A DNA stretch of 30,407 bases from an uncultured Burkholderiales bacterium (GTDB taxonomy: Bacteria > Pseudomonadota > Gammaproteobacteria > Burkholderiales > UBA6910), in contig CAZGTK010000001.1 of the NCBI GenBank assembly GCA_964528415.1, positions 1 through 30,407 of the forward strand, read 5' to 3'. The position numbers and the translations under genes were made by a program. Below the pieces are notes generated by a model. It made no database searches, was not told the DNA's origin, and was given only the letters and a program-made list of their open reading frames with translations. Positions 6,676 to 17,559 of this stretch are shown piece after piece. Positions within the stretch are counted from its first letter, which is position 1; every line of letters starts with the position of its first letter.

Positions 6676-7908
6676 CTATCGAACACCGATCTCGGGAAAC
6701 AGACCTGGCATCCAACGGGATGCCAGAGCGGCGGGAAAGGCAAGGCGCAGCGGCGCGCGCGTACTCTCCGATGTGAGAACTCCGCAGTCCAGCAGCGCCG
6801 AAGTGATTCGGCGCGCCTGGCGCTCACCCGTGCCGACAACGCTTGTCGCATCCGCGCGAGGCAGTTCCCCGCGATAGAGCACTGCTTCGAGGATGCTGCC
6901 CGACTTGGGCGGCAGATGATCGAGCCTGATTTCTTCTTCTGCCCATAGCAGGATTCGGGCGCGCAACTTATCCGGCTGCATCAGTCTCTCCATGAAGGTG
7001 ACTTGATCGATACACGTGGTCAGAAAGAACGTCGTGAACTCGGCCAGACTCTCCTCGCTCAGATTTCCCCTGCCATCGAGGTCGTTGCGCCTTTGCTGAT
7101 CGCAGGCAGCAAGGTTGTGCTTGTAGTCGGCGACGTTGCGCGCAAGACCGCGAGCGATGGACCATACCGCCCCTGTGTCGAGAACATCGAGAAGGGTTGC
7201 GTGAGAAATCAGCCGGGCAACGCGACCATTGCCGTCAAGAAACGGGTGAATCCAGACCAACCGGTGATGCGCAGCCGCCGCCGCAAGAATGGTCTCGCTC
7301 TTGTTCAGTCTGCTGTAGACCTCTTCATAGCGATTCAGAAAACGCGGCACCGCAACTGGACTGATTGCGATGTGGTCGCCGACCTTGACATCGAGGGTCC
7401 GTAATTCTCCCGGAACGACCTTAATAACTTTCTTCGTGGCATCGTCTTCGGTCCAGAGCAAATCTTCCGGCAGCAACTCGCAAAAGCGACGGTGTACTTC
7501 GCGGATCGAAGCTACGGTGAGGGCGCGGCCCTTGAGTCCGCCGCCATCTATCCATTGTTGAACTGCAATGTGCGCCTGCGCTTCGAGTTGTAGATCGCGC
7601 TTTCTTGCGTCCTTGCTGTAGTCGCCCTTCAGGGCGCGCTCAATATCGACCGGGTGCGTGTCGTGCCCCTCGATGAGATTGCTGTAATAGCAGTTCATCG
7701 ACCGGACAAGATCGGCGAGTGATGCCAGCAGGCTTTCCGGCAGACTGCGGCGAAAGCCGGCGCTTCTCTGCGCAAGCTCGAGCGCGAGGTCGGTCAATGC
7801 GGGGCGATGGCGCTCGCCGAGCAGGAGCGGCTCCATCCTGGAAACCGTCTCTCCGCCGTCTCTGACCGAATTTGTGTCCGCTTTTTTGTCCTGTGCCTTA
7901 TCGTTCAT
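6676..7908 (-). CDS. Fic-family protein (class II-like, internal inhibitory motif) with probable C-terminal winged HTH
   Basis: Fic motif HPFLDGNGRVAR; inhibitory (S/T)xxxE(G/N) motif SNLIEG N-terminal to it; C-terminal RADATSVVGTGERQARRITSALLDCGVL looks like a wHTH. Confidence 0.9.
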   Translation of the reverse strand: MNDKAQDKKADTNSVRDGGETVSRMEPLLLGERHRPALTDLALELAQRSAGFRRSLPESLLASLADLVRSMNCYYSNLIEGHDTHPVDIERALKGDYSKDARKRDLQLEAQAHIAVQQWIDGGGLKGRALTVASIREVHRRFCELLPEDLLWTEDDATKKVIKVVPGELRTLDVKVGDHIAISPVAVPRFLNRYEEVYSRLNKSETILAAAAAHHRLVWIHPFLDGNGRVARLISHATLLDVLDTGAVWSIARGLARNVADYKHNLAACDQQRRNDLDGRGNLSEESLAEFTTFFLTTCIDQVTFMERLMQPDKLRARILLWAEEEIRLDHLPPKSGSILEAVLYRGELPRADATSVVGTGERQARRITSALLDCGVLTSESTRAPLRLAFPAALASRWMPGLFPEIGVR

Positions 7909-8009
7909 AGATGTTTTTTACTCAGAAGCTTAGATTAAGTCAAGAGGCGATAAGGACCACTTAAATGACCGCTTTCAAGGCCGGATTATCCGAGAACACG
8001 GATTATGAT

Positions 8010-8039
8010 TTGACATTGTCAGGTCTTACTGTTTAGAAT
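8010..8039 (+). promoter_or_regulatory. Sigma70-type promoter for the 8060-11796 operon with an overlapping palindrome
   Basis: -35 TTGACA (8010-8015), 18 bp, -10 TAGAAT (8034-8039). Palindrome TGACA-T-TGTCA (8011-8021) overlaps the -35. GGAG precedes ATG 8060. Confidence 0.7.
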
Positions 8040-8059
8040 GCTGACATTGGAGATGTTTC

Positions 8060-8629
8060 ATGAGTGACGGTCCCCATAGAAGTCTTCCGATGTCCCGCTC
8101 TTGGAAGCGGGTCGCCGAGTACGCGGAGAATGAGAATTTCGGGCGCGCTGACATGTGTGCCGCTGCGACCGAGGCGCTTGAGCAAACCTGCCGAAAAAGC
8201 CTCCCTTCGGAGTTGATGGAAGGATTACGCAGCATCTTCCTCGAACAGCAAGCCGGGCTGTTCTCCGACCGGCGTGCCGATTCGCTCGACGCGTTGCGGC
8301 CACTTGCTGCCGGGCACGGAATCGCCAGGCTCCTCCTCGATCACGCGACCTGCGTGGTGCGCGAGGGCGGAGCCGGTGAAAGTGGATTGGTCGAAGCTGC
8401 GGAGCGGATGCTCACGGCCATCGGTGAGACCTTCACGCGCCAGATTGAAGAGCACTACCTGCGTGAGGCGGCACAGCCCCTCGCAAGTCAGGCCATCGGG
8501 CGTGTGGAGAAGGCGCTTGAGGACACCGACAAGCGCGCGCTTGCGCGGCAGCTTTGCGGTCTTGAGGCGGGATCACCACGACGTGCGTCTCTCAAGCACA
8601 AGGACATCGACGACGGGGTGCCACTATAA
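8060..8629 (+). CDS. Hypothetical protein (189 aa, appears mainly helical); first gene of the QueC-like operon
   Basis: ORF with promoter and RBS upstream and a normal protein-like composition, directly followed by the QueC-like gene; no family motif recognised. Confidence 0.75.
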   Translation: MSDGPHRSLPMSRSWKRVAEYAENENFGRADMCAAATEALEQTCRKSLPSELMEGLRSIFLEQQAGLFSDRRADSLDALRPLAAGHGIARLLLDHATCVVREGGAGESGLVEAAERMLTAIGETFTRQIEEHYLREAAQPLASQAIGRVEKALEDTDKRALARQLCGLEAGSPRRASLKHKDIDDGVPL

Positions 8630-8661
8630 ACGCGCTCGTCGAATCCGCTCGCACGGATGCA

Positions 8662-10011
8662 TTGGCGCAAGTATTCGTCGATGTCGTCGAGGCTGGCGCG
8701 AAGGCGCGAACCGGACGGCGGACCTGCGAGATCGATCGCGACCTCACGTTCTCCACGGGTCATCTGGAAAGCTACTGCCTCGCGCAATGGGAGCCGGTCG
8801 TGTACGACGCGCTTGTGTTGTGCGCGGGTGTTGAGTACTGCGATCGCATCTGCCGCCGCCGCACTCACGAGTGGGGACGACGCATCGAACTTCGCGTTCC
8901 GGTGCATGAACCGGAGCGATGGAGCGCGAAGCCTGTCAGCGACGCGCTGCACGCGGCACTCGACTTCCTGACGGGCGATCGCTGGAGTGTTTCGTTCGTC
9001 AAGCGCAGGAAGGCTTTTGTCACTCCCAAGCAGTTCGCCTTCCCGATCCCGAGCGACATCGTGGCGGTCATTCCCTTCAGCGACGGGCTCGACTCGCGTG
9101 CCGTCGCCGGATTGATGCACGAGGAGATGGGCGATCAGCTCATCCGAGTCCGGCTCGGAACTAAGCCCTTCAAGCCGGGCCGCTCCGATGTGAAGCAGCC
9201 GTTCACGTCGGTCCCGTACAAGGTTAGACCGGTCGATAGCAACTTCGTCGAGACGAGCGCGCGGTCGCGCGGCTTCAAGTTCGCGATGGTGAGCGGTCTC
9301 GCCGCCCACCTGGTCGGGGCTCGGACGATCATCGTCACCGAGAGCGGTCAGGGCTCTCTTGGGCCCGCACTCGTGCCGGTCGGACAGACCTACGAGGATT
9401 ACCGCAATCATCCCTTGTACACGGACAGGATGGAGGCGGTGCTCCAAGCGCTTTACGGTCGGAGCATTCGGTTCGACTTCCCGCGTCTGTGGCACACGAA
9501 AGGCGAGACGCTCGCTGCGTTCGTCGCCGGGTGCGCTGATGGACATACGTGGGCCGATACGTGGTCCTGTTGGCAGCAGCCCCGTCAGGTTTCTGTCGTT
9601 GGGCGCAAGCGTCAGTGCGGTATCTGCGCTGCCTGCATGCTCAGGCGCCTTAGCATTCACGCAGCGGGGCTGACGGAGAACCCGGAGACCTACGTCTGGG
9701 AAGACCTTGGCGCTGCGTCGTTCGAAGGCGGCGCGGCAAAAGGGTTCAAGAAGATCACGAAGGCGTTGCGGGAATACGCCATCGCCGGGACGCTGCATCT
9801 GGAGCACCTGGCCTCGCTGCGTCACCGGAAGGCGGCGCAGGGAACGCTCGCGCTGACCGCGCGGCAGCTCGGGCTCTCGCGGGGCATCAGCGAGGCCGAA
9901 ACGCGCACCCGGCTGGATCGCCTTCTCGCGCAGCATGAGACCGAGTTGAAACGATTCCTAGAATCGCTCGGCTCGCAGTCCTTCGTGGCTCAATGGGGAA
10001 AACATCGATGA
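8662..10011 (+). CDS. QueC-like (7-cyano-7-deazaguanine synthase fold) PP-loop protein with QatC-like architecture
   Basis: PP-loop variant IPFSDGLDS; RSRGF; TESG; HP; TKGE; Zn-site WSCW...CGICAACMLRR. N-terminal extension (EYCDR...WGRRIELRVPVHEPERW...LDFLTGDRWSVSF) resembles my recollection of QatC. Start TTG 8662; the frame is open upstream to an ATA at 8626 that overlaps the previous TAA. Confidence 0.82.
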   Translation: MAQVFVDVVEAGAKARTGRRTCEIDRDLTFSTGHLESYCLAQWEPVVYDALVLCAGVEYCDRICRRRTHEWGRRIELRVPVHEPERWSAKPVSDALHAALDFLTGDRWSVSFVKRRKAFVTPKQFAFPIPSDIVAVIPFSDGLDSRAVAGLMHEEMGDQLIRVRLGTKPFKPGRSDVKQPFTSVPYKVRPVDSNFVETSARSRGFKFAMVSGLAAHLVGARTIIVTESGQGSLGPALVPVGQTYEDYRNHPLYTDRMEAVLQALYGRSIRFDFPRLWHTKGETLAAFVAGCADGHTWADTWSCWQQPRQVSVVGRKRQCGICAACMLRRLSIHAAGLTENPETYVWEDLGAASFEGGAAKGFKKITKALREYAIAGTLHLEHLASLRHRKAAQGTLALTARQLGLSRGISEAETRTRLDRLLAQHETELKRFLESLGSQSFVAQWGKHR

Positions 10012-11195
10012 CCGATACGCCACTCAGCCAGATTGCCCTAGCCGATCTTGGCGAACGCCTTCGCGTCGCGCGTGAGAACGCGAGCTTCAGGCAGAAGGAT
10101 GCCGCCGAGGCGATCTCCGTTGCCCGTACCACCTTGGTCGCCATCGAGCAAGGCCAGCGCCGCGTGCGCATGGATGAGCTCCAGCATCTTGCGAAGCTCT
10201 ACAAGACCTCGGTTAATGCGATCCTGCGAAGGGAGGCCGTACATGTCGATCTTGCCCCCCGGTTTCGCAAGCTGATCGGCGGCGACGATCTTGCCGCCTT
10301 CAAGGCAACCGAACTGCTCACCGATCTTGCGCGCGCCGAAGTCGAGATTGAAAACCTCCTCGGCATCACGCGCACGCGCAACTACCCGCCTGAGCGCCCG
10401 ATCCTTCCGGGCGACGTGCGCGCGCAGGCCGAGCAGGACGCGATCGAGCTGCGGCAGCGGCTCGGGCTGGGATTCGCCCCGGTGCATGACATCGTGACCC
10501 TGCTGGAAATGGAGATGGGCGTGCGCGTCTACGTGCGCCGAATCGACGGCAGTATTTCCGGCGTGTTCGCCTACGACGACAATCTGGGGGCGTGCATGCT
10601 GCTCAATGCGAATCATCCGCGTGAGCGGCGCAACCAGTCTGGCGGACATGAACTCGGGCACCTTGTTTCTGTGCGCCGCGAACCGGAAGTCCTGCATTCG
10701 AGCGAACCTGAGACGACGCGCGAGGAGCGTTACGCGGCGGCCTTCGCCCGCTCGTTCCTCACGCCCGCGGGAGCCGTCCGGCAGAAGTTTCAGGAGGTTA
10801 CGGCGGGATCGACGCGCCTCACCCGCCGTCATGTCATCGTGCTCGCGCACTTTTTCGGCGTATCGCGCGAGGCGATGGTCCGCAGGCTTGAAGAGCTTGG
10901 ACTTACGAAGAAGGGCACGTGGGACTGGTTCGAAGCAAACGGCGGCATCACGGACGAGCAGGCTCGGCAGGTGCTCGGCGATCTGCGCACGCCGGACCAG
11001 TACAAGGCGCAGGCCGACCGTCCGACGACCCTCAAGCTGAACCTGCTTGCAGCCGAGGCTTATCGACGCGAACTGCTGAGCGAAGGGCAGCTTGCGCGCC
11101 TGCTGCGGCTTGACCGGATCGAGCTGCGTGACCTGCTGAGCGATCTGGAATCGCAGGAGGAAGAAGCCGATGGGGCTCCGAACCTCCTTGTCTGA
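10008..11195 (+). CDS. XRE HTH fused to ImmA/IrrE (M78) metallopeptidase, with a C-terminal UPF0175-like segment
   Basis: N-terminal HTH (LRVARENASFRQKDAAEAISVARTTLVAIEQG), HELGH (HExxH), downstream ERYAAAFARSFLTP, C-terminal AEAYRRELLSEGQLARLLRLDRIELRDLL. ATG 10008 overlaps the QueC-like TGA (ATGA). Confidence 0.88.
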   Translation: MTDTPLSQIALADLGERLRVARENASFRQKDAAEAISVARTTLVAIEQGQRRVRMDELQHLAKLYKTSVNAILRREAVHVDLAPRFRKLIGGDDLAAFKATELLTDLARAEVEIENLLGITRTRNYPPERPILPGDVRAQAEQDAIELRQRLGLGFAPVHDIVTLLEMEMGVRVYVRRIDGSISGVFAYDDNLGACMLLNANHPRERRNQSGGHELGHLVSVRREPEVLHSSEPETTREERYAAAFARSFLTPAGAVRQKFQEVTAGSTRLTRRHVIVLAHFFGVSREAMVRRLEELGLTKKGTWDWFEANGGITDEQARQVLGDLRTPDQYKAQADRPTTLKLNLLAAEAYRRELLSEGQLARLLRLDRIELRDLLSDLESQEEEADGAPNLLV

Positions 11196-11796
11196 TGACG
11201 ACCGCGTTCTGGTCGCCGACACGAGCACGATCATCAATCTCAACGCCACCGGCTGCGCCGCAGACATCCTGAACGCGTTGCCGTGCCGCGTCGTGGCAGC
11301 CGATTCTGTGCGTGAAGAGCTTGAGAACGGCCGGGCAAGAGGCCGCAGCGACGCCGCCAGTTTCGAGGCGCTTGTCGGCGGCGGACATATTCAAATGGTG
11401 AGCCTCGGCGACCAGGGCCTGCTGCACTTCGAGGGACTCGTGATCGGTGCGGCAAGCGACACCCTCGACGACGGCGAGGCGGCAACGATCGCCTTTGCGG
11501 CGCAGGCAGGCGCGGTTGCGCTGATCGATGAGCGCAAGGCGCTTCGCCTGTGTGCCTCGCGTTTCCCGGCCCTGCGGCTGGCAAGCACCGTCGATGTCCT
11601 TGCGCATCCCGCAGTGCTGGGCGTGCTCGGCGCGAGCGCGCTTGCCAATGCCGTTTTCAACGCCCTTGCTCGCGGGCGCATGCGTGTCTTGCCGCATCAC
11701 ATCGACGGAGTCGTCGAACTGATCGGCCCGGGGCGCGCGGCTCAGTGCATCAGTTTGCCTCGTGAGACTCGCAGCGCCCACCGCGTCAAAGCTTGA
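11170..11796 (+). CDS. PIN-domain nuclease (DUF3368/COG2405-like)
   Basis: Acidic PIN residues in context: VLVADTSTII, REEL, LDDGEAATIA, LIDERKA; overlaps the end of the upstream gene by 26 nt. Confidence 0.8.
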   Translation: MGLRTSLSDDDRVLVADTSTIINLNATGCAADILNALPCRVVAADSVREELENGRARGRSDAASFEALVGGGHIQMVSLGDQGLLHFEGLVIGAASDTLDDGEAATIAFAAQAGAVALIDERKALRLCASRFPALRLASTVDVLAHPAVLGVLGASALANAVFNALARGRMRVLPHHIDGVVELIGPGRAAQCISLPRETRSAHRVKA

Positions 11797-11907
11797 GCCG
11801 CGGTCGTTCTACTCCCGCATAACGCCCACTTGAAAATGAACCGGGATGGTCGTCCAGCCCTGGATGCGAGCTAAGTCGGTCAGTGACAGTATTTGCTTCG
11901 TCCTCCT

Positions 11908-13128
11908 TCATGCAGCGACCACCTCCGCGACTGAGGCATCGGCGGACCTTAAGTTCCCAGTGAAGGCCTGGGCCAGGAGCGCCTGAAAGGTCGCCTCGGA
12001 CTTTCTTTGGGCTTCGGCCTGTTGCGCAACGATGCCAAGGACAGAACGGCTGCGCTCCTCGAAGCGCCTTTGCGCATCAAGAGGCGGCAGCGGCACGGGG
12101 AACGCCTTGAGTTCCTTGCTGTTGATGTTGGCCTGACCGATTGCGCCGCGTGCGGTGTCGTAGAGGATCCGCTTCATGTGGCGGGTGTTCATGAAAGCCC
12201 ACAAATAGAACGGGCAAGTCTTCGAATCGTCTGCACGGAGTCGGATGAAGTACGACGCGGCGACGGCATCCATGCCGCTGTCCCAAAGCCCGGTCTTGCC
12301 GACAAGCTCTTTGCTGTTCGTCCGGTTGAAGAGAAGGTCGCCCTTCTCAAGGCTGTACCGTTCGGCTTCGTTCGGCTTTAACTCGACATACTTGAGGTCT
12401 GACAGGTCAAGGCTACCATCATAGGTGACATTGCCCATCCGGATCAGCGGAAGCCCAGCACCGGTCTCGGAGGCCTTCGTGCTGCTGCCGTAGTCGGCAG
12501 CAAGGAGAACGTCGCCCATCGGCGCAATCGGCCACCCCTTCGGATTCGTTGCAGGGTCGCCGAACATGTCGAGGAAGAGCGCCGGGATGATCTCGGCGGT
12601 TTTGGCTTGGGCCTCGCGTCGCAGCCGGACAATTCCTTCCGCGCGGGACAGCAGGTCGACGATGCGTCGCTGCTCGTCGACGCCGGGAAAGCAAATGATG
12701 AATTTTCGTAAGGTGCCCCGGGCGATCTCTTTAAAGGTCGTCCCGCCTGCGTGCTGAATCATCCTATCCCGCTGAGTTCTGAGCCAGTAGGCCAGAAACT
12801 CTGGAACGAGGTCTTCGCCGCATACGAAGTTAACGAAACCCTGATTTGTGCAGATAGGTACTTGGGCGACAGCCGTGTAGCCAATCGTCGCTCGGCTTGT
12901 GAGAAGCACGGCGCCGGGCGGAAGTAACTTTGTCGAGCTATTGTTTAGTCCACTTTCGGTGATGGTTTCCTTCGTTCTATTGATGTAAAGGCCTTCGAGC
13001 GCTGTTACATCCGTAGGGGTCGCCCAACAATATTTGCCGCCGAAGTGGCTCGCCTCCTGCCTAGATGGTGTCCCGCCACCGCAGATCTCGGCGACCTCCT
13101 CCAGCCGTGCGGTACGCCACCCGTTCAT
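11908..13128 (-). CDS. hsdS: Type I restriction-modification specificity subunit
   Basis: Two TRDs (GGGTPS...TSRATIG...TNQGF; DYGSS...FNRTNSKELVGK) with conserved-region repeats EQRRIV / FLDMFGDP / LDAQRRF / FQALLAQAFTG; overlaps the hsdM stop. Confidence 0.93.
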   Translation of the reverse strand: MNGWRTARLEEVAEICGGGTPSRQEASHFGGKYCWATPTDVTALEGLYINRTKETITESGLNNSSTKLLPPGAVLLTSRATIGYTAVAQVPICTNQGFVNFVCGEDLVPEFLAYWLRTQRDRMIQHAGGTTFKEIARGTLRKFIICFPGVDEQRRIVDLLSRAEGIVRLRREAQAKTAEIIPALFLDMFGDPATNPKGWPIAPMGDVLLAADYGSSTKASETGAGLPLIRMGNVTYDGSLDLSDLKYVELKPNEAERYSLEKGDLLFNRTNSKELVGKTGLWDSGMDAVAASYFIRLRADDSKTCPFYLWAFMNTRHMKRILYDTARGAIGQANINSKELKAFPVPLPPLDAQRRFEERSRSVLGIVAQQAEAQRKSEATFQALLAQAFTGNLRSADASVAEVVAA

Positions 13129-14747
13129 GCCGCTTCACCGAGCGCCGCGCGCAGCGCTTCCACTTCTTCCAAGATCTCAGCCTCGATTGCGGCCAGTTCG
13201 TCGAGCAGCTCGCGCGGGTCGCGATGCTGCACCTGCTGCTGGCTCATGGGGCGATACCGTCCGGCCGAAAGATTGAAGTCGCTCGCGCGCAGGGTCGCTG
13301 CATCCGCGAACCACCATGGAGACGTCCATTCGGCTTTCGGGTCACGCTTTTCCCACGCCTTCAGCCCGGCCTCGCGGTCACGGTACGCGGCGTTCAGTGC
13401 GGGCAGGTCATCTGCCTCGATCGGCTGGTCGTGGTTGGCATCGAGTTTGTAGCCGTCGTTGTCGGCGTGGAGGAAGAGCACGTGCTCGGTCTTGCCGCCC
13501 TTGCGGAAGAAGAGCACCGAGGTCTTCACTCCCGAATACGGCTGGAACACGCCGCCCGGCAGGCTCATCACCGCCTCGACGCGGTTGTTCTCGATCAACT
13601 GGCGGCGCAGCTCCTTGTGCGCCCCAGTCGAGCCGAACAGCACACCCTCGGGGACGATGACTCCGCAACGCCCGCCGGCACGGAGGGAATCCATCATGTA
13701 CTTGAGGAACAGCAGCTCCGTCGCGGTCGTCGTGCCGACCTTCACGTCGTCGACGATGCGGTCCTTGTCGACGCGGCCCGAGAACGGCGGGTTGGCGAGG
13801 ACGACGTGGTAGCGCTCTTGCGGCAGGCCCAGCTCGGCCTTGCGCTCGGCATCGAGGGTCGTCGTCAGCACGTTGCGCAGCAAGATGCGCACGTTCGGCA
13901 GGCCGCGCAGCGTCAGGTTCATGGTCGCGAGCCGGACCATCTTCGGGTCGACGTCGTTGCCGAAGAAGGTCTGGTTCTGGAGCGCCGAGACCTGCGCTGA
14001 CGAGAGCTTGTCGCCGAGGCCGCGCGTCTGCACCTTGCCGTCGATATCGACGCTCTGAATGCCGCCCGGCGACGAATTCGCCAGCCGGATGTGGTTGTAG
14101 GCGGCGACCAGGAAACCCGCGGTGCCCGCGGCCGGGTCGTAGATCGTCTCCCCGATCTTCGGATCGATGATCTCGACAATGGCGCGGATGATGTGGCGCG
14201 GCGTGCGGAACTGGCCGAGCTCGCCCGCCTGCTTGATCTGCTTGAGGACGTGCTCGAAGAGGTCACCCTTGGTGTCAGCGTCGGCGCGGTCGAGGCGCAG
14301 GCCGTCGACCAGCGTCACGATCTGCGTGAGCACCGTCGGCTCGTCGATGCCGAGGCGGGCGCCGTGCATGAAATTGACGGCACCGTTCCCCGCGACGTCC
14401 GTGAAGAACGGGAACACCTCGTCGCGCACAAAGCGCACGAGGGGCTCGCCCGAGAGGCCCTTGGCCCACACCGACCAGCGGAAGCGATCCCTCGGGATCG
14501 TGGTCTCGCCCTTGGCGGGCGCGTTGAGGGGGTTCTTGAGCGTCCAGCTGCCCTTGAAGATGCTCGCGTATTTCTGCTTCAGGACCCTGGCGCGGGCCTC
14601 GTTCTCGGCGTCGATGCCCTCGATCAGATAGAAGAAAAACAGGAACGCGAGCTGCTCGGCGTTGCTGACCGGATCGGGATAGCCGCCGCCGTACAGGTAG
14701 TCGCGGATCTGCTCGATCGAGCGGCGCATCGCGGGCGTCAGGGGCAT
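13125..14747 (-). CDS. hsdM: Type I RM N6-adenine methyltransferase subunit
   Basis: Motif I YDPAAGTAGFL, motif IV LANPPF, GQFRTPRHII, GVIVPEGVLF. Real start taken as MPLTPAM at 14747; the track's extension to 14876 overlaps hsdR and is low-complexity. Confidence 0.93.
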   Translation of the reverse strand: MPLTPAMRRSIEQIRDYLYGGGYPDPVSNAEQLAFLFFFYLIEGIDAENEARARVLKQKYASIFKGSWTLKNPLNAPAKGETTIPRDRFRWSVWAKGLSGEPLVRFVRDEVFPFFTDVAGNGAVNFMHGARLGIDEPTVLTQIVTLVDGLRLDRADADTKGDLFEHVLKQIKQAGELGQFRTPRHIIRAIVEIIDPKIGETIYDPAAGTAGFLVAAYNHIRLANSSPGGIQSVDIDGKVQTRGLGDKLSSAQVSALQNQTFFGNDVDPKMVRLATMNLTLRGLPNVRILLRNVLTTTLDAERKAELGLPQERYHVVLANPPFSGRVDKDRIVDDVKVGTTTATELLFLKYMMDSLRAGGRCGVIVPEGVLFGSTGAHKELRRQLIENNRVEAVMSLPGGVFQPYSGVKTSVLFFRKGGKTEHVLFLHADNDGYKLDANHDQPIEADDLPALNAAYRDREAGLKAWEKRDPKAEWTSPWWFADAATLRASDFNLSAGRYRPMSQQQVQHRDPRELLDELAAIEAEILEEVEALRAALGEAA

Positions 14748-14781
14748 TGCGTCTTCTTCCCTCTCTTTTTTGGGCCCGGAC

Positions 14782-16923
14782 CTACGAGGGTCGAACGTCC
14801 GGGCCGCTGCCGGCGGTCGCGGTCGGGGCTTCCGGCGCGAACACTTCGCCGTTGAGGGCCTCGAGGATCGCTTCAAGCTGATTCAAACCGCCGAAGACCC
14901 GGACCGCTTCCGGCATCCCGCCCATCAGCGTGAACGGGTGGAAGGCGAAGTGCCCGGCGGTGAACTCGTCCATCGTGTCCGCGTTCGCCCGGAGCTGGCT
15001 GCCGACCACGCGCAGCCAGCGCTCCTGGTCGGGCGTGAGGTTGCCTTCCTGGCTCAGTAGCCAGGCCTCGAAGCGCGCGCCAAGGGCGGCCGCCTTGGCC
15101 TCCGAGGCCTCCGGAAACACCATGTTGCCGTCTTCGTCGACCGTGATCCACTCGCGCGTGGTCGGGTCGATGTGGTCGTTGATGTCGAGCGAGAGCAGCC
15201 GGCGCGGTTCGTACTTCTTCCTCGGCCGTTTCTCCGCGACCACGCCGCCTTCGCCGCTCTCGTCCTCGTCGCCGTGGAAGTCGGTGACGCCCACGAAGTC
15301 GAACATGGTGAAGAGCGGCTTGCCCTTGAGCTTACGGGTGCCGCGCCCGCGCATCTGCTGGTAGAGGATCGCCGAGCGCGTGAACCGGGCGAAGACCAGG
15401 TTCACAACCTCGGGGCAGTCGAAGCCCGTATCGAGCATGTTCACGGAGACGAGGATCTGCGGGTACCGCTCTTTCTTGAAGCGCTTGATCTTGGTCATGC
15501 CGTCCACGGTGTCCTCGGCGCCCATGCCGGAGACGACGTAATCGGCGTAGCGGATCTCCGGCGACGGCTTCCTGTCCGCGTAAGCTTCATCGAGCATCTG
15601 CGCGAGCGTCTCGGCGTGGCGCCGGGTCACGGCGAAGACGATGGTTTTGCCGAGAAGCGGCTTGCGGAGCTGGCCCTTCGCGTCCGTGTAGCCTTTCTCC
15701 AGCACGTCGCGGAACTCACGGACGATGGCCCGGTTGCGCTCGGGGATCGTGAACCTGCGCTCCAGCGCTGACGGGTCGATCACGATGCTCTGCTCCGCGC
15801 CGAACAGTTGCTCGAACTCGGCGCGGGTTGCCTTGTCCATCGCGCTCCAGTCCAGCTCGTCGCGCTTGACTTCGAAGCCGCCCTCGGCGGCGGTCTTGAC
15901 GGTCTTGGCCTTGTAAATCTGGTACGGGACGAGGTAGCCGTCGCGGATGGCGTCCTTGAGCTTGTAGCTGAAGGTGGGCTTGTCGACCTCGAAGAAGCGC
16001 AGCGTGTCGCGGATGGCGAGCTTGTCTTCCTCGTCGCCGAAGTCCTCGATATCGGTAATGCAGGGCGTGGCGGTCAGGCCGACCTGAACGCCGTCGAAGT
16101 GCTTGAGCACGCCGCTCCACTTGCCGTAGATCGAGCGGTGGCATTCGTCCGAGATCACGAGGTCGAAGTAACCCGACGAGTATTCGCGATAGATGTTCAC
16201 CATGCTCTGCAAGGTGGTGATGGTGATGCGTTTCTCGTCCTGGAAACGCCGCCCGGCGCGCAGCACGTAGGCCGGAAAGTCCGGCAGGTGCTCGGCGAAG
16301 GCGTCCTCCGTCTGCTTCGCGAGGGGAATGCGATCGACGAGGAACAGAACGCGGGTGATGGCGTTCGCCTCGAACAGGCGTTTGATGAAGGCGGCTGCCG
16401 TGCGGGTCTTGCCGGTGCCGGTTGCCATTTCGACCAGCATCTTGCGCCGCCCGGCGTTGATCTCCCGGCAGAGCGCGTCGATGCACTCAATCTGGTAGTC
16501 GCGCTCGACGATGTGGTGGTCGATGGGAACGGTGAGCGGGTCGCGGCGCACTTGGCCGGTCGCGGCCCGGCGTTCGAGGTCGTCCTGCGCGAAAAAGGTC
16601 TTGATCGGGCGCGGGAAGGCTTCGCGCTGCCACTCCCAGAGGCGGATTTCCTCGCCGTTGGCGAGGAAGATGTACGGCACTCCGAGCTGCGCGGCGTAGG
16701 CCCTGGCCTGCGCTTCGGCTTCCGCCGGGTTGATCGCGGCTTTCTTGGCCTCGATCACGGCGAGCGCCCGCCCGTGGCGGTCGCAGAGCACGTAATCGGC
16801 CTTGGTCCGGTCGGGAAGGACGTACTCGAAGCGCACCGCATTGGGGTTGAGTACATCCCAGCCCCGGTCCTTGAGCTGGGCGTCGATTTTGACGCGCGAG
16901 AAGGCTTCGTTCGTTCCCGGCAT
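14782..16923 (-). CDS. hsdR: Type I RM restriction subunit (EcoAI/EcoEI-like, type IB style)
   Basis: Nuclease motif ADYVL...VIEAKK, Walker A MATGTGKT, DECH, TAT, MLDTGFD, QMRGRGTR; gene order R-M-S. Confidence 0.92.
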   Translation of the reverse strand: MPGTNEAFSRVKIDAQLKDRGWDVLNPNAVRFEYVLPDRTKADYVLCDRHGRALAVIEAKKAAINPAEAEAQARAYAAQLGVPYIFLANGEEIRLWEWQREAFPRPIKTFFAQDDLERRAATGQVRRDPLTVPIDHHIVERDYQIECIDALCREINAGRRKMLVEMATGTGKTRTAAAFIKRLFEANAITRVLFLVDRIPLAKQTEDAFAEHLPDFPAYVLRAGRRFQDEKRITITTLQSMVNIYREYSSGYFDLVISDECHRSIYGKWSGVLKHFDGVQVGLTATPCITDIEDFGDEEDKLAIRDTLRFFEVDKPTFSYKLKDAIRDGYLVPYQIYKAKTVKTAAEGGFEVKRDELDWSAMDKATRAEFEQLFGAEQSIVIDPSALERRFTIPERNRAIVREFRDVLEKGYTDAKGQLRKPLLGKTIVFAVTRRHAETLAQMLDEAYADRKPSPEIRYADYVVSGMGAEDTVDGMTKIKRFKKERYPQILVSVNMLDTGFDCPEVVNLVFARFTRSAILYQQMRGRGTRKLKGKPLFTMFDFVGVTDFHGDEDESGEGGVVAEKRPRKKYEPRRLLSLDINDHIDPTTREWITVDEDGNMVFPEASEAKAAALGARFEAWLLSQEGNLTPDQERWLRVVGSQLRANADTMDEFTAGHFAFHPFTLMGGMPEAVRVFGGLNQLEAILEALNGEVFAPEAPTATAGSGPDVRPS

Positions 16924-16934
16924 GCAGCAGGCGG

Positions 16935-17261
16935 TTAGGCCGGTTGCGGATGGATCGACTTGGCGCCCGACCTCGGTTTGCCTGGCCGGGTCGGCAGGGC
17001 TTTGATCTCGTCGCCGGCTTCCTGCTCGGCCAGGCGGACGTCGTAAAGCGCCTGCAGGTTCATCCAGAATTGCGGGCTGGTGCCGAACCAGTGCGCAAGG
17101 CGAAGCGCGGTATCGCCGGTGATCGCGCGCTTGCCGTTGACGATTTGGGTGATGCGGTTCGGCGGAACGCGAATCTGCCGCGACAGCTCCGTGGGGCTGA
17201 CGCCCAGCCCGTCGAGCTCTTCGGCAAGAACTTCGCCGGGGTGAATGGGGGTACGGGCCAT
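16935..17261 (-). CDS. higA: HigA-family antitoxin (XRE HTH)
   Basis: HPGEVLAEEL, GKRAITGDTALRLAHWFGTSPQFWMNLQ. Confidence 0.93.
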   Translation of the reverse strand: MARTPIHPGEVLAEELDGLGVSPTELSRQIRVPPNRITQIVNGKRAITGDTALRLAHWFGTSPQFWMNLQALYDVRLAEQEAGDEIKALPTRPGKPRSGAKSIHPQPA

Positions 17262-17274
17262 GGTCAGGTGCCTC

Positions 17275-17559
17275 TCAGTGGTAATCCACGATCTCGACGT
17301 TGGAAGGTCCGGCGTGCCCTTCGGGCCACTCGAAGCAGATCCGCCATTGCATGTTGATGCGAATGCTGAACTGGCCCTTGCGCTCGCCCCTCAGAGCTTC
17401 GAGCGCGTTGGACGGCAGCGCCCGGAGGTCCGCGAGGCTGGTCGCCGCCTCAAGGATATCGAGCCGCTTTTCCGCTTGGCTGCGGAAGACCTCGAACTCC
17501 CGGACCCGCTTGCCTTCCGCGAAGTCCCGGGTCCGCTTGTCGCGGTAGCTCAGGATCAT
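17275..17559 (-). CDS. higB: HigB (RelE/ParE superfamily) toxin
   Basis: MILSYRDKRT..., LEALRGERKGQFSIRINMQWRICFEW, VEIVDYH; toxin lies upstream of antitoxin. Confidence 0.93.
   Translation of the reverse strand: MILSYRDKRTRDFAEGKRVREFEVFRSQAEKRLDILEAATSLADLRALPSNALEALRGERKGQFSIRINMQWRICFEWPEGHAGPSNVEIVDYH

What the first reader, a model, noticed from the sequence alone, without database searches (positions are those of the whole stretch)
10008..11796. Three-domain XRE-M78-UPF0175-like protein coupled to a DUF3368-like PIN: a protease-gated toxin-antitoxin pair
Seen: beyond the HTH and HELGH peptidase, the last ~50 residues (AEAYRRELLSEGQLARLLRLDRIELRDLL plus an acidic tail ESQEEEAD) resemble UPF0175-type small HTH proteins. 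The next gene is a PIN with the VADTS...DDGEA...IDERKA pattern of DUF3368. Known: UPF0175/DUF3368 are commonly paired as predicted TA modules; HTH-M78 proteins are the antitoxins of RosmerTA; IrrE/ImmA/CapP peptidases are switched on by DNA damage or ssDNA. Inference: one polypeptide may combine repressor, stress-activated protease and PIN-neutralising domain, so cleavage would both derepress the operon and free the nuclease.
Basis: partly seen in the sequence, partly recalled or inferred. Interest (0 to 1): 0.65.

Follow-up and report, generated by a model that had tools for sequence, protein, structure and literature searches.

The report
Repressor-protease-antitoxin fusion with PIN nuclease
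A DNA-binding zinc-protease carries at its tail a copy of the small antitoxin domain that normally partners this type of PIN nuclease, and the PIN gene overlaps it; the pair looks like a protease-gated toxin-antitoxin switch, and is usually the last two genes of an undescribed four-gene relative of the Qat anti-phage system.

Summary
ORF 10008-11195 encodes a 395-aa protein with an XRE HTH, an intact M78 (CapP/IrrE-like) HExxH peptidase and a C-terminal three-helix module. That module's only Pfam match is UPF0175. The match is below threshold, but hhalign gives 88% against genuine UPF0175 proteins, against 29% or less for controls.

ORF 11170-11796 is a catalytically intact PIN. It matches the DUF3368/COG2405 PINs that follow genuine UPF0175 genes (hhalign 98%).

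In 80 related loci from several phyla the two genes stay adjacent, with the same 26-nt overlap in 71 of 78.

The architecture fits a repressor-protease-antitoxin fusion, but cleavage, binding and toxicity are untested. In 69 of 80 loci the pair follows a QatB-like small protein and a QatC-like enzyme. All four genes share one promoter with a conserved palindromic operator (window 8010-8047).

Loci holding only the pair carry deletion scars of the two upstream genes, so the pair is the part that is kept.

HTH-M78 plus PIN modules were predicted in 2009 and 2017 and resemble RosmerTA. The fused UPF0175-like tail and the Qat-like linkage were not in the papers I searched. This scan has met the same family before on other DNA. 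I rate it a new variant of a known kind.

The parts
8010..8047 (+). Promoter with operator. The -35 TTGACA (8010-8015) lies inside the palindrome TGACATTGTCA (8011-8021). The -10 TAGAAT is at 8034-8039. A third TGACA half-site is at 8042-8046, and the SD GGAG at 8049-8052.
   Evidence: The sigma-70 scan gives an 11/12 match. The palindrome is unique in the window. An exact TGACA-N1-2-TGTCA occurs in 59/78 upstream regions of related loci, against 1 in 970 kb elsewhere in those loci. All 59 have a further TGACA 18-30 nt downstream.
8060..8629 (+). Gene 1 of the operon: a 189-aa QatB-like small protein. It lies outside the finding but shares its promoter.
   Evidence: The N-terminus MSDGPHRSLPMxxxW is nearly invariant in 66 loci while the rest is 26-71% identical. 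The Pfam CATASP hit is weak (E 3.6e-4).
8662..10011 (+). Gene 2: a QatC-like QueC-family PP-loop enzyme. Its stop overlaps the start of the HTH-M78 gene as ATGA.
   Evidence: NCBIfam QatC E 8e-34 (below cut-off) and PADLOC QatC 2e-31. The published QatC cluster-2 motifs are present in 61-68 of 68 family members, and the PP-loop in the tested form in 46. The 4-nt (ATGA-type) overlap occurs in 52 of 68 loci.
10008..11195 (+). HTH-M78-UPF0175-like protein, 395 aa.
   Evidence: PADLOC RmrA E 2e-25. The best Foldseek match is CapP 7t5t, followed further down the list by IrrE and PprI.
10044..10232 (+). XRE-type HTH DNA-binding domain (residues 13-75).
   Evidence: Pfam HTH_31/HTH_3. PDB profile hits to ImmR, DdrO and C-proteins.
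10233..10292 (+). Linker (residues 76-95) predicted disordered yet carrying invariant P84, F86 and R87. It is a candidate cleavage or docking site (inference).
   Evidence: pLDDT is below 50 for residues 75-83. P84, F86 and R87 are invariant in 80/80 sequences.
10512..10892 (+). M78 (ImmA/IrrE/CapP-type) metallopeptidase core. The HELGH motif is at 10647-10661 (H214, E215, H218). E240 is the probable third ligand.
   Evidence: Pfam PF06114 E 1.6e-12. H214, E215, H218 and E240 are invariant in 80/80.
11028..11165 (+). C-terminal three-helix UPF0175-like module (residues 341-386) with the invariant SEGQ motif, R370 and R374.
11155..11195 (+). Acidic tail codons that double as the PIN's Shine-Dalgarno (AGGAGG, 11155-11160), plus the 26-nt overlap of the two genes (11170-11195).
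   Evidence: Sequence read. The overlap is -26 nt in 71/78 loci.
11170..11796 (+). DUF3368/COG2405-type PIN nuclease, 208 aa. Conserved residues are D17, E50, D101, E103, D120, E121 and T140.
   Evidence: PADLOC PDC-S70 E 3e-12.

Best explanation
The two genes form a protease-gated toxin-antitoxin-type module, with the antitoxin functions fused in one chain.

1. The N-terminal XRE HTH binds the TGACAnTGTCA operator that overlaps the -35 box, plus a further TGACA half-site at the transcription start. This represses the whole operon (inferred from the conserved operator).
2. The C-terminal UPF0175-like three-helix module holds the co-translated DUF3368-type PIN nuclease inactive (inferred from homology to the usual partner of such PINs).
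3. The central CapP/IrrE-like zinc peptidase is a latent sensor. When triggered it cuts the chain in cis or in trans. By analogy with CapP, IrrE/PprI and ImmA the trigger may be a DNA-damage or ssDNA-type cue, or a phage product. A candidate cut site is the disordered linker with invariant P84-x-F86-R87.
4. Cleavage lifts repression and destabilises the antitoxin, so the PIN is freed to cut RNA and arrest the infected cell (inferred).

In most genomes the same promoter also drives a QatB-like and a QatC-like gene. Derepression would therefore also raise that Qat-like module, as CapH/CapP does for CBASS.

Shown here: the domain architecture, the conservation of both active sites, the fixed gene overlap, the conserved operator, and retention of the pair when the two upstream genes are deleted.

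Not shown: binding, cleavage, toxicity, the trigger.
For: - Domains.
- PIN identity and fold.
- Invariant HExxH plus E (80/80) and PIN acidic residues (78 of 79 PINs).
- PIN directly downstream in 78/80 loci from Pseudomonadota, Acidobacteriota, Binatia, Planctomycetota, Thermodesulfobacteriota and Longimicrobiales; the other two loci (L009, L011) end at the contig edge.
- The same 26-nt overlap in 71/78 loci.
- Operator palindrome on the -35 in 59/78 loci, against 1 per 970 kb of background.
- Pair-only loci L028, L042, L073 and L080 carry scars of a deletion that removed the QatB/QatC-like genes. L028, L073 and L080 keep the first codons of gene 1 (MSDGP..., or MSERP in L080) and the promoter. 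L028, L042 and L073 keep the last codons of gene 2. All four keep the HTH-M78 gene, and all but L080 keep an intact PIN. This is what addiction predicts.
- In L080 the PIN is the gene that decayed while the HTH-M78 gene stayed intact.
- Literature: UPF0175 is found exclusively with COG2405 PINs, and COG2405 PINs occur with HTH plus DUF955 (PMC5499597). Xre-COG2856 fusions linked to PIN were predicted as three-component TA systems (PMC2701414). The ImmA-domain antitoxin was confirmed in RosmerTA and is associated with PINs (PMC10440598). One PDC-S70 PIN candidate reduced plating of T4, T5 and T7 by 100-1000 fold (bioRxiv 10.1101/2024.09.26.614923).
Against: - The UPF0175 match is below Pfam's threshold and covers only the HTH core (profile positions 22-56 of 75). 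It may mark a DNA-binding or dimerisation helix bundle rather than a toxin-binding one.
- Distance-matrix correlation with the PIN is no higher for the tail than for the other domains.
- No clean natural fusion of tail and PIN was found. The apparent fusions are decaying copies.
- The regulator sits in the middle of a four-gene operon, which points to a role for the whole cassette.
- The acidic tail is confounded by the PIN's ribosome-binding site.
- No experiment exists on this family.
Confidence: 0.55

Rival explanations
1. Regulator-only reading. The HTH-M78 protein is a fused CapH/CapP-type transcriptional switch for a four-gene Qat-like defence operon. Its C-terminal helices serve dimerisation, DNA binding or ligand sensing. 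The PIN is the system's effector, standing in for the QatD nuclease, and is controlled by the QatB/QatC-like pair rather than by direct sequestration.
For: - A QatC-like gene flanks the pair in 69 of 80 loci (upstream in 68, downstream in L033), and a QatB-like gene was detected in 66.
- There is one shared promoter.
- CapP is the best structural match. PADLOC gives capP 3e-15 and capH 7e-5.
- The only close QatC-like hit among 400 sampled genomes also has the pair downstream.
- QatBC is the minimal core of Qat defence, with QatA and QatD accessory (PMC13279940).
Against: - The pair persists with both active sites intact in 10 loci that lack the Qat-like genes. Four of the 11 pair-only loci show deletion scars.
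- The tail resembles specifically the antitoxin family that partners this PIN clade.
- CapH/CapP regulators are normally separate, divergently transcribed genes, not embedded between operon genes.
Confidence: 0.27
2. Pure addiction module. The pair is a selfish toxin-antitoxin cassette that stabilises the mobile island, or the Qat-like genes next to it. It has no sensing role. The peptidase only turns over the antitoxin.
For: The distribution across phyla is patchy at 54-91% identity. The pair is retained after deletion of its neighbours. It lies in a low-GC island with Fic and type I RM genes.
Against: The strict invariance of the peptidase site, and of a disordered linker motif, across phyla argues for a regulated proteolytic step. 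Relatives such as RosmerTA and a PDC-S70 member give phage defence.
Confidence: 0.12
3. The UPF0175 resemblance is a generic HTH similarity with no functional meaning. The protein is an ordinary RmrA-like HTH-M78 protein whose tail belongs to the peptidase's helical domain.
For: The Pfam score is below the gathering cut-off. Only 35 columns align. The protein-atlas search of the tail was uninformative.
Against: UPF0175 is the only Pfam hit for the tail even at E<=10. Controls with the protein's own XRE HTH, its middle region, and reversed or shuffled profiles score far lower. The neighbour is exactly the PIN clade that pairs with UPF0175.
Confidence: 0.06

Closest known systems
Predicted three-component TA: Xre HTH - COG2856/DUF955 (M78) peptidase - PIN of the COG2405/DUF3368 clade (Makarova 2009, PMC2701414; Matelska 2017, PMC5499597)
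   Same: An HTH fused to the M78 peptidase, with a COG2405-type PIN immediately downstream in the same operon. A protease-controlled antitoxin or repressor was proposed.
   Different: Those papers treat the Xre HTH as the antitoxin and do not describe a C-terminal UPF0175-like module on the fusion. They also do not report linkage to QatB/QatC-like genes or the conserved operator.
UPF0175 (COG2886) / DUF3368 (COG2405) two-gene TA modules
   Same: The same PIN clade (hhalign 98%) and the same HTH core of the antitoxin (hhalign 88%). The antitoxin-like part is encoded just upstream and overlaps the PIN gene.
   Different: Here the UPF0175-like part is a partial domain at the end of a 395-aa repressor-peptidase, not a free protein of about 85 aa. 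It scores below the Pfam threshold.
RosmerTA (RmrT/RmrA; Millman 2022, Ernits 2023 PMC10440598)
   Same: The antitoxin-type protein has an N-terminal HTH plus an ImmA/M78 peptidase (PADLOC RmrA E 2e-25). The system is TA-like and has a defence role.
   Different: The RmrA models match only residues 21-307, so the tail is specific to this family. The toxin here is a DUF3368 PIN that hits PDC-S70, not an RmrT model. The pair is usually embedded in a four-gene operon.
CapH/CapP, ImmR/ImmA and DdrO/IrrE(PprI) repressor-protease switches
   Same: An M78 peptidase fold (best PDB match CapP 7t5t, then IrrE and PprI further down) together with an XRE repressor domain like ImmR and DdrO. The likely logic is proteolytic derepression.
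   Different: Repressor and protease are one chain here. The gene is inside the operon it would control. An extra antitoxin-like tail and an overlapping PIN are present.
QatABCD anti-phage system (QatBC core; PMC13279940, PMC13329287)
   Same: The upstream genes match QatC motifs and mimic QatB's conserved N-terminal tail. The setting is a defence island.
   Different: There is no QatA ATPase and no QatD TatD nuclease; an HTH-M78 protein and a PIN take their places. The small protein starts MSDGP, not MGTS.

Membership tests
UPF0175 (PF03683) | Scores above the Pfam gathering cut-off (27.9 bits) | tested here: not met
   22.8 bits for the full protein and 25.9 bits for the last 70 aa. 24.6 bits in the genome search.
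UPF0175 (PF03683) | The whole 75-position domain is present, as a small free-standing protein | tested here: not met
   Only profile positions 22-56 align. The module is the tail of a 395-aa protein.
UPF0175 (PF03683) | Encoded immediately upstream of a COG2405/DUF3368 PIN | tested here: met
   The PIN overlaps by 26 nt. Its clade was confirmed by hhalign at 98%.
DUF3368 / COG2405 PIN | Match to the family model | tested here: inconclusive
   The local PF11848.13 model gives no hit. All 120 homologues carry a precomputed PF11848.14 hit. hhalign against PINs next to genuine UPF0175 genes gives 98.1%, E 9e-14, 156 columns.
DUF3368 / COG2405 PIN | PIN fold with the conserved acidic active-site residues | tested here: met
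   AF2 pLDDT 93. Foldseek top hits are VapC toxins, and 2mdt is also matched. D17, E50, D101, E103 and D120 are conserved in 78-79 of 79.
RosmerTA | RmrA-type antitoxin: HTH plus M78 peptidase | tested here: met
   16 PADLOC RmrA models match, the best at E 2.1e-25 over residues 21-307. HExxH is invariant.
RosmerTA | The partner gene matches an RmrT toxin model | tested here: not met
   The PIN hits only PDC-S70 models in PADLOC.
RosmerTA | Toxicity neutralised by the HTH-M78 protein, and phage defence | not testable with these tools
   This needs expression and plaque assays.
CapH/CapP-type regulators | M78 peptidase of the CapP/IrrE fold plus an XRE repressor | tested here: met
   Foldseek CapP 7t5t E 3.6e-4, then IrrE and PprI. 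PADLOC capP 3e-15 and capH 7e-5.
CapH/CapP-type regulators | Two separate genes placed beside the operon they control, usually divergently | tested here: not met
   A single fused gene lies third in the operon.
QatABCD | QatA ATPase and QatD TatD nuclease accompany QatB and QatC | tested here: not met
   The operon holds only a small protein, a QatC-like enzyme, the HTH-M78 protein and the PIN. Its flanks are a Fic gene and a type I RM system.

The most novel reading that the evidence does not exclude
The pair is the output arm of a four-gene Qat-like immune system. The QatC-like enzyme modifies the invariant N-terminus (MSDGP...) of the small protein. That modified protein, or its loss during infection, is the signal that switches on the M78 peptidase. 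The peptidase then cuts its own chain, which derepresses the operon and releases the PIN. A more speculative variant is that the peptidase trims MSD to expose Gly4 as the acceptor for the QatC-like enzyme. Either way this would link QueC-family protein modification to proteolytic release of a nuclease.
Probability: 0.2. Interest if true: 0.8.

Novelty: new variant of a known kind. Interest (0 to 1): 0.5.

Why it matters
How HTH-M78 'antitoxins' of the Rosmer type neutralise their many different toxins is unresolved. Here the answer may be visible in the sequence: the protein carries the dedicated partner domain of its PIN at its tail. That gives a clean, testable three-function chain of repressor, sensor-protease and neutraliser.

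The conserved operator and the invariant motif in the disordered linker give concrete targets for EMSA and for mapping the cleavage site.

The tight linkage to a QatB/QatC-like pair offers a second, simpler genetic setting in which to ask what QueC-family protein modification does in immunity. That question is still open for QatABCD.

Tried and rejected
1. Local Pfam PF11848.13 against the PIN, its 24 homologues and the whole genome gave no hit. I relied on the precomputed PF11848.14 hits and on hhalign instead.
2. A PDB profile search with the PIN alignment found nothing useful.
3. A mirror-tree test was not discriminating. Every region of the HTH-M78 protein correlates with the PIN at r 0.75-0.85, with partial r 0.20-0.30.
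4. A profile of the tail against 1.84 billion representatives gave 292 hits. Among the 150 listed, the full-length (about 380-400 aa) proteins carry the module at their C-terminal end, and most shorter entries look like fragments of the same family. I recognised no free-standing relatives.
5. Apparent fusions are decaying copies, not Rosetta stones. P0312 is an internal remnant running from mid-M78 into the first 35 aa or so of the PIN. P0253 is a contig-edge fragment that a one-base slip in the GGGG run would explain. L125 fuses the QatC-like and HTH-M78 genes, but with HELGR in place of HExxH and a truncated PIN.
6. A genome search with the PADLOC PDC-M69B model at E 1e-15 found nothing, not even the window's own gene. 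The threshold was too strict.
7. A protein-atlas search of the tail scored 0.88 or less and was uninformative.
8. The weak Pfam CATASP hit on gene 1 (E 3.6e-4 over 38 aa) was not taken as membership.
9. PDB entry 9vzy (393-aa HTH protein, M78 region E 1.4e-7) could not be traced to a paper.
10. A co-fold of the tail with the PIN was not possible with the single-chain tool.
Full report
**What is there**

The window is a whole 30.4-kb contig of a 71%-complete MAG. Positions roughly 7000-17500 form a lower-GC stretch (0.57-0.66, against 0.68 or more for all but one of the other 1-kb bins). It holds a Fic/SoFic-like gene on the minus strand, four tightly packed plus-strand genes, and a type I RM system on the minus strand.

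The finding covers the last two plus-strand genes:
- Gene 10008-11195 starts at an ATG that overlaps the previous gene's stop as ATGA and gives a 395-aa protein. Homologues are 389-399 aa.
- Gene 11170-11796 gives a 208-aa protein. Its first 26 nt overlap the end of the first gene.

Residue numbers below use the 395-aa protein.

**The HTH-M78 protein**

- Pfam finds an XRE HTH (HTH_31, E 1.7e-10) and Peptidase_M78 (E 1.6e-12).
- PADLOC's RmrA models match residues 21-307 (best E 2e-25). The capP and capH models also match.
- In 80 family members H214, E215, H218 and E240 are invariant.
- The AF2 model (pLDDT 84.5) best matches CapP 7t5t, with IrrE and PprI further down the list. The HTH matches ImmR, DdrO and C-proteins.
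- A linker at residues 75-83 is predicted disordered. Yet P84, F86 and R87 just after it are invariant. I flag this as a candidate cleavage or docking site. That is inference only.

**The tail**

- Residues 342-386 fold as three helices with pLDDT 82-87.
- UPF0175 is the only Pfam family the last 70 residues hit, even at E<=10 (25.9 bits, E 8e-6, cut-off 27.9).
- About half of the 120 closest homologues carry a precomputed PF03683 hit.
- I collected 29 genuine UPF0175 proteins from 200 sampled genomes of the same phylum. hhalign of the tail alignment against them gives 88% and P 3e-6 over 35 columns.
- Controls are far lower: the protein's own XRE HTH 29%, its middle region 7%, a reversed profile 0.2%, and 20 column shuffles 0.9% or less.
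- The match covers only the HTH core of UPF0175, so this is a UPF0175-like module and not a family member by Pfam's rule.
- The SEGQ motif, R370 and R374 are invariant.
- The acidic stretch is confounded. Its codons contain the PIN's AGGAGG ribosome-binding site, 9 nt before the ATG.

**The PIN**

- The local PF11848.13 model misses it. All 120 homologues carry a precomputed PF11848.14 hit.
- The family aligns with the roughly 164-aa PINs encoded right after genuine UPF0175 genes at 98.1%, E 9e-14, over 156 columns.
- The AF2 model (pLDDT 93) matches VapC toxins, and also 2mdt, the COG2405 structure.
- D17, E50, D101, E103, D120 and E121 are conserved in 78-79 of 79 sequences.
- PADLOC calls it PDC-S70. 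One member of that candidate family lowered plating of T4, T5 and T7 by 100-1000 fold in E. coli (bioRxiv 10.1101/2024.09.26.614923).

**Context in other genomes**

A scan of species-representative genomes returned 80 loci at 54-91% identity. They come from alpha-, beta- and gamma-proteobacteria, Acidobacteriota, Binatia, Planctomycetota, Thermodesulfobacteriota and Longimicrobiales.

- The PIN lies directly downstream in 78 loci. The other two end at a contig edge.
- The overlap is exactly 26 nt in 71 of 78.
- In 69 loci a QatC-like gene flanks the pair, and in 66 a small-protein gene was detected as well.
- The QatC-like family carries the published QatC cluster-2 motifs.
- The small protein has a nearly invariant N-terminus, MSDGPHRSLPMxxxW, while its body diverges. 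This recalls the conserved N-terminal tail of QatB (PMC13279940).
- The cassette is rare. Only one close hit appeared in 400 sampled genomes of the phylum, and it too has the pair downstream.

**Promoter and operator**

The only strong promoter lies upstream of gene 1: TTGACA, 18 nt, TAGAAT (11/12 match). The -35 box sits inside the palindrome TGACATTGTCA. Another TGACA follows the -10 box.

- The same layout recurs upstream of the first gene in the related loci. An exact TGACA-N1-2-TGTCA is present in 59 of 78 upstream regions.
- Only one such palindrome occurs in 970 kb of the rest of those loci. All 59 have the downstream half-site.
- Several of the remainder have near-variants of the palindrome (L034, L054 and L062 were inspected).
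- This is what an autoregulating XRE repressor would need. Binding itself is inferred.

**Pair-only loci**

Eleven loci lack the two upstream genes.
- Six are syntenic Binatia loci. In the two whose upstream region I inspected (L015, L017) the operator-promoter directly abuts the HTH-M78 gene.
- L028, L073 and L080 keep the promoter and the first codons of gene 1. In L028 and L073, and in L042 (where I found no operator within 200 nt), the last codons of the QatC-like gene also remain. These are deletion scars.
- L033 has a pair-only copy next to a full cassette.
- Both active sites stay intact in 10 of the 11. In L080 the PIN has decayed while the HTH-M78 gene is intact.

The pair is therefore the part that is kept, as expected for an addictive toxin-antitoxin unit.

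**Mechanism**

The HTH represses, the peptidase senses and cuts, and the tail restrains the PIN. Cleavage then derepresses the operon and frees the nuclease. I add that the same switch would control the Qat-like genes.

The main rival (0.27) is that the protein is only a fused CapH/CapP-type regulator and the PIN is an effector governed by the Qat-like pair.

A co-evolution test did not separate these readings. Apparent natural fusions turned out to be decaying copies.

**Comparison with what is known**

- Xre-COG2856 fusions next to PINs were predicted as three-component TA systems in 2009 (PMC2701414).
- COG2405 PINs with HTH plus DUF955, and the exclusive pairing of UPF0175 with COG2405, were reported in 2017 (PMC5499597).
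- The ImmA-type antitoxin is validated in RosmerTA and linked to PINs in NetFlax (PMC10440598).
- The only four papers that mention DUF3368 or UPF0175 do not describe the UPF0175-like tail on the fusion. The Qat papers I searched do not mention a peptidase or PIN partner.
- This scan has reported the same family on other DNA. It noted both the tail domain (e1-2429741, e1-5204829) and the four-gene cassette (e1-2951912, e1-4216381, e1-5265461). My results agree with those notes.

New here are the conserved operator, the fixed 26-nt overlap with the ribosome-binding site inside the tail codons, the deletion scars and the specificity controls.

**Verdict**

It is a new variant of a known kind. 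Interest: 0.5.

Noticed in passing
window 8060-8629 and L001-L079: The 189-aa product of gene 1 has a nearly invariant N-terminus, MSDGPHRSLPMxxxW, in 66 loci, while the rest is only 26-71% identical. This resembles QatB's conserved N-terminal tail that enters the QatC active site, but it starts with Ser-Asp-Gly instead of Gly.
   Followed up: partly
window 8662-10011: The QueC-like gene carries the published QatC cluster-2 motifs (DxWxxxF, RxRxxxF, P(x)4TK, CGxCxxCxxRR) in 61-68 of 68 family members. It scores below NCBIfam's QatC cut-off. No QatA or QatD gene is nearby.
   Followed up: partly
L028, L073, L080, L042 (about 200 nt upstream of the HTH-M78 gene): These loci carry deletion scars. 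L028, L073 and L080 keep the first codons of gene 1, fused in L028 and L073 to the last codons of the QatC-like gene. L042 keeps only that 3' remnant, with no operator found within 200 nt. The HTH-M78 gene and the PIN remain (the PIN has decayed in L080). They look like independent losses of the Qat-like half of the cassette.
   Followed up: partly
L033 6007-12054: A pair-only copy (HTH-M78 plus PIN) lies directly upstream of a full four-gene cassette, which carries a 398-aa ORF, probably a second HTH-M78 gene, at 10858-12054.
   Followed up: no
L125 215-3956: This is a decaying variant. The QatC-like and HTH-M78 genes are fused into one 847-aa ORF, HExxH is changed to HELGR, the PIN lacks its first 50 residues or so, and the start of gene 1 is altered.
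   Followed up: partly
L123 498-1148, L124 464-1114: A 216-aa remnant ORF runs from the middle of the M78 domain through the tail into the first 35 residues or so of the PIN. It was seen in two samples.
   Followed up: partly
window 11155-11195: The PIN's Shine-Dalgarno AGGAGG is formed by the Gln-Glu-Glu codons of the upstream protein's acidic tail. A GGGG run at the PIN start means a one-base slip would fuse the two reading frames.
   Followed up: no
window 6676-7908 (-) and 11908-16923 (-): A SoFic-like Fic protein (PADLOC SoFic E 5e-24) and a complete type I RM system (hsdS, hsdM, hsdR) flank the operon, so the setting is a defence island.
   Followed up: no
G000:C354:1715-1727 (L116): This is the only other near-match (one mismatch) to the operator TTGACAnTGTCAG in the MAG. 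tblastn found no homologues of the operon's genes in that locus.
   Followed up: partly
PDB 9vzy_A: A solved 393-aa 'HTH cro/C1-type domain-containing protein' matches the M78 region (E 1.4e-7). It may be a structure of a related HTH-M78 fusion. I found no paper for it, and it is not in the Foldseek library.
   Followed up: partly
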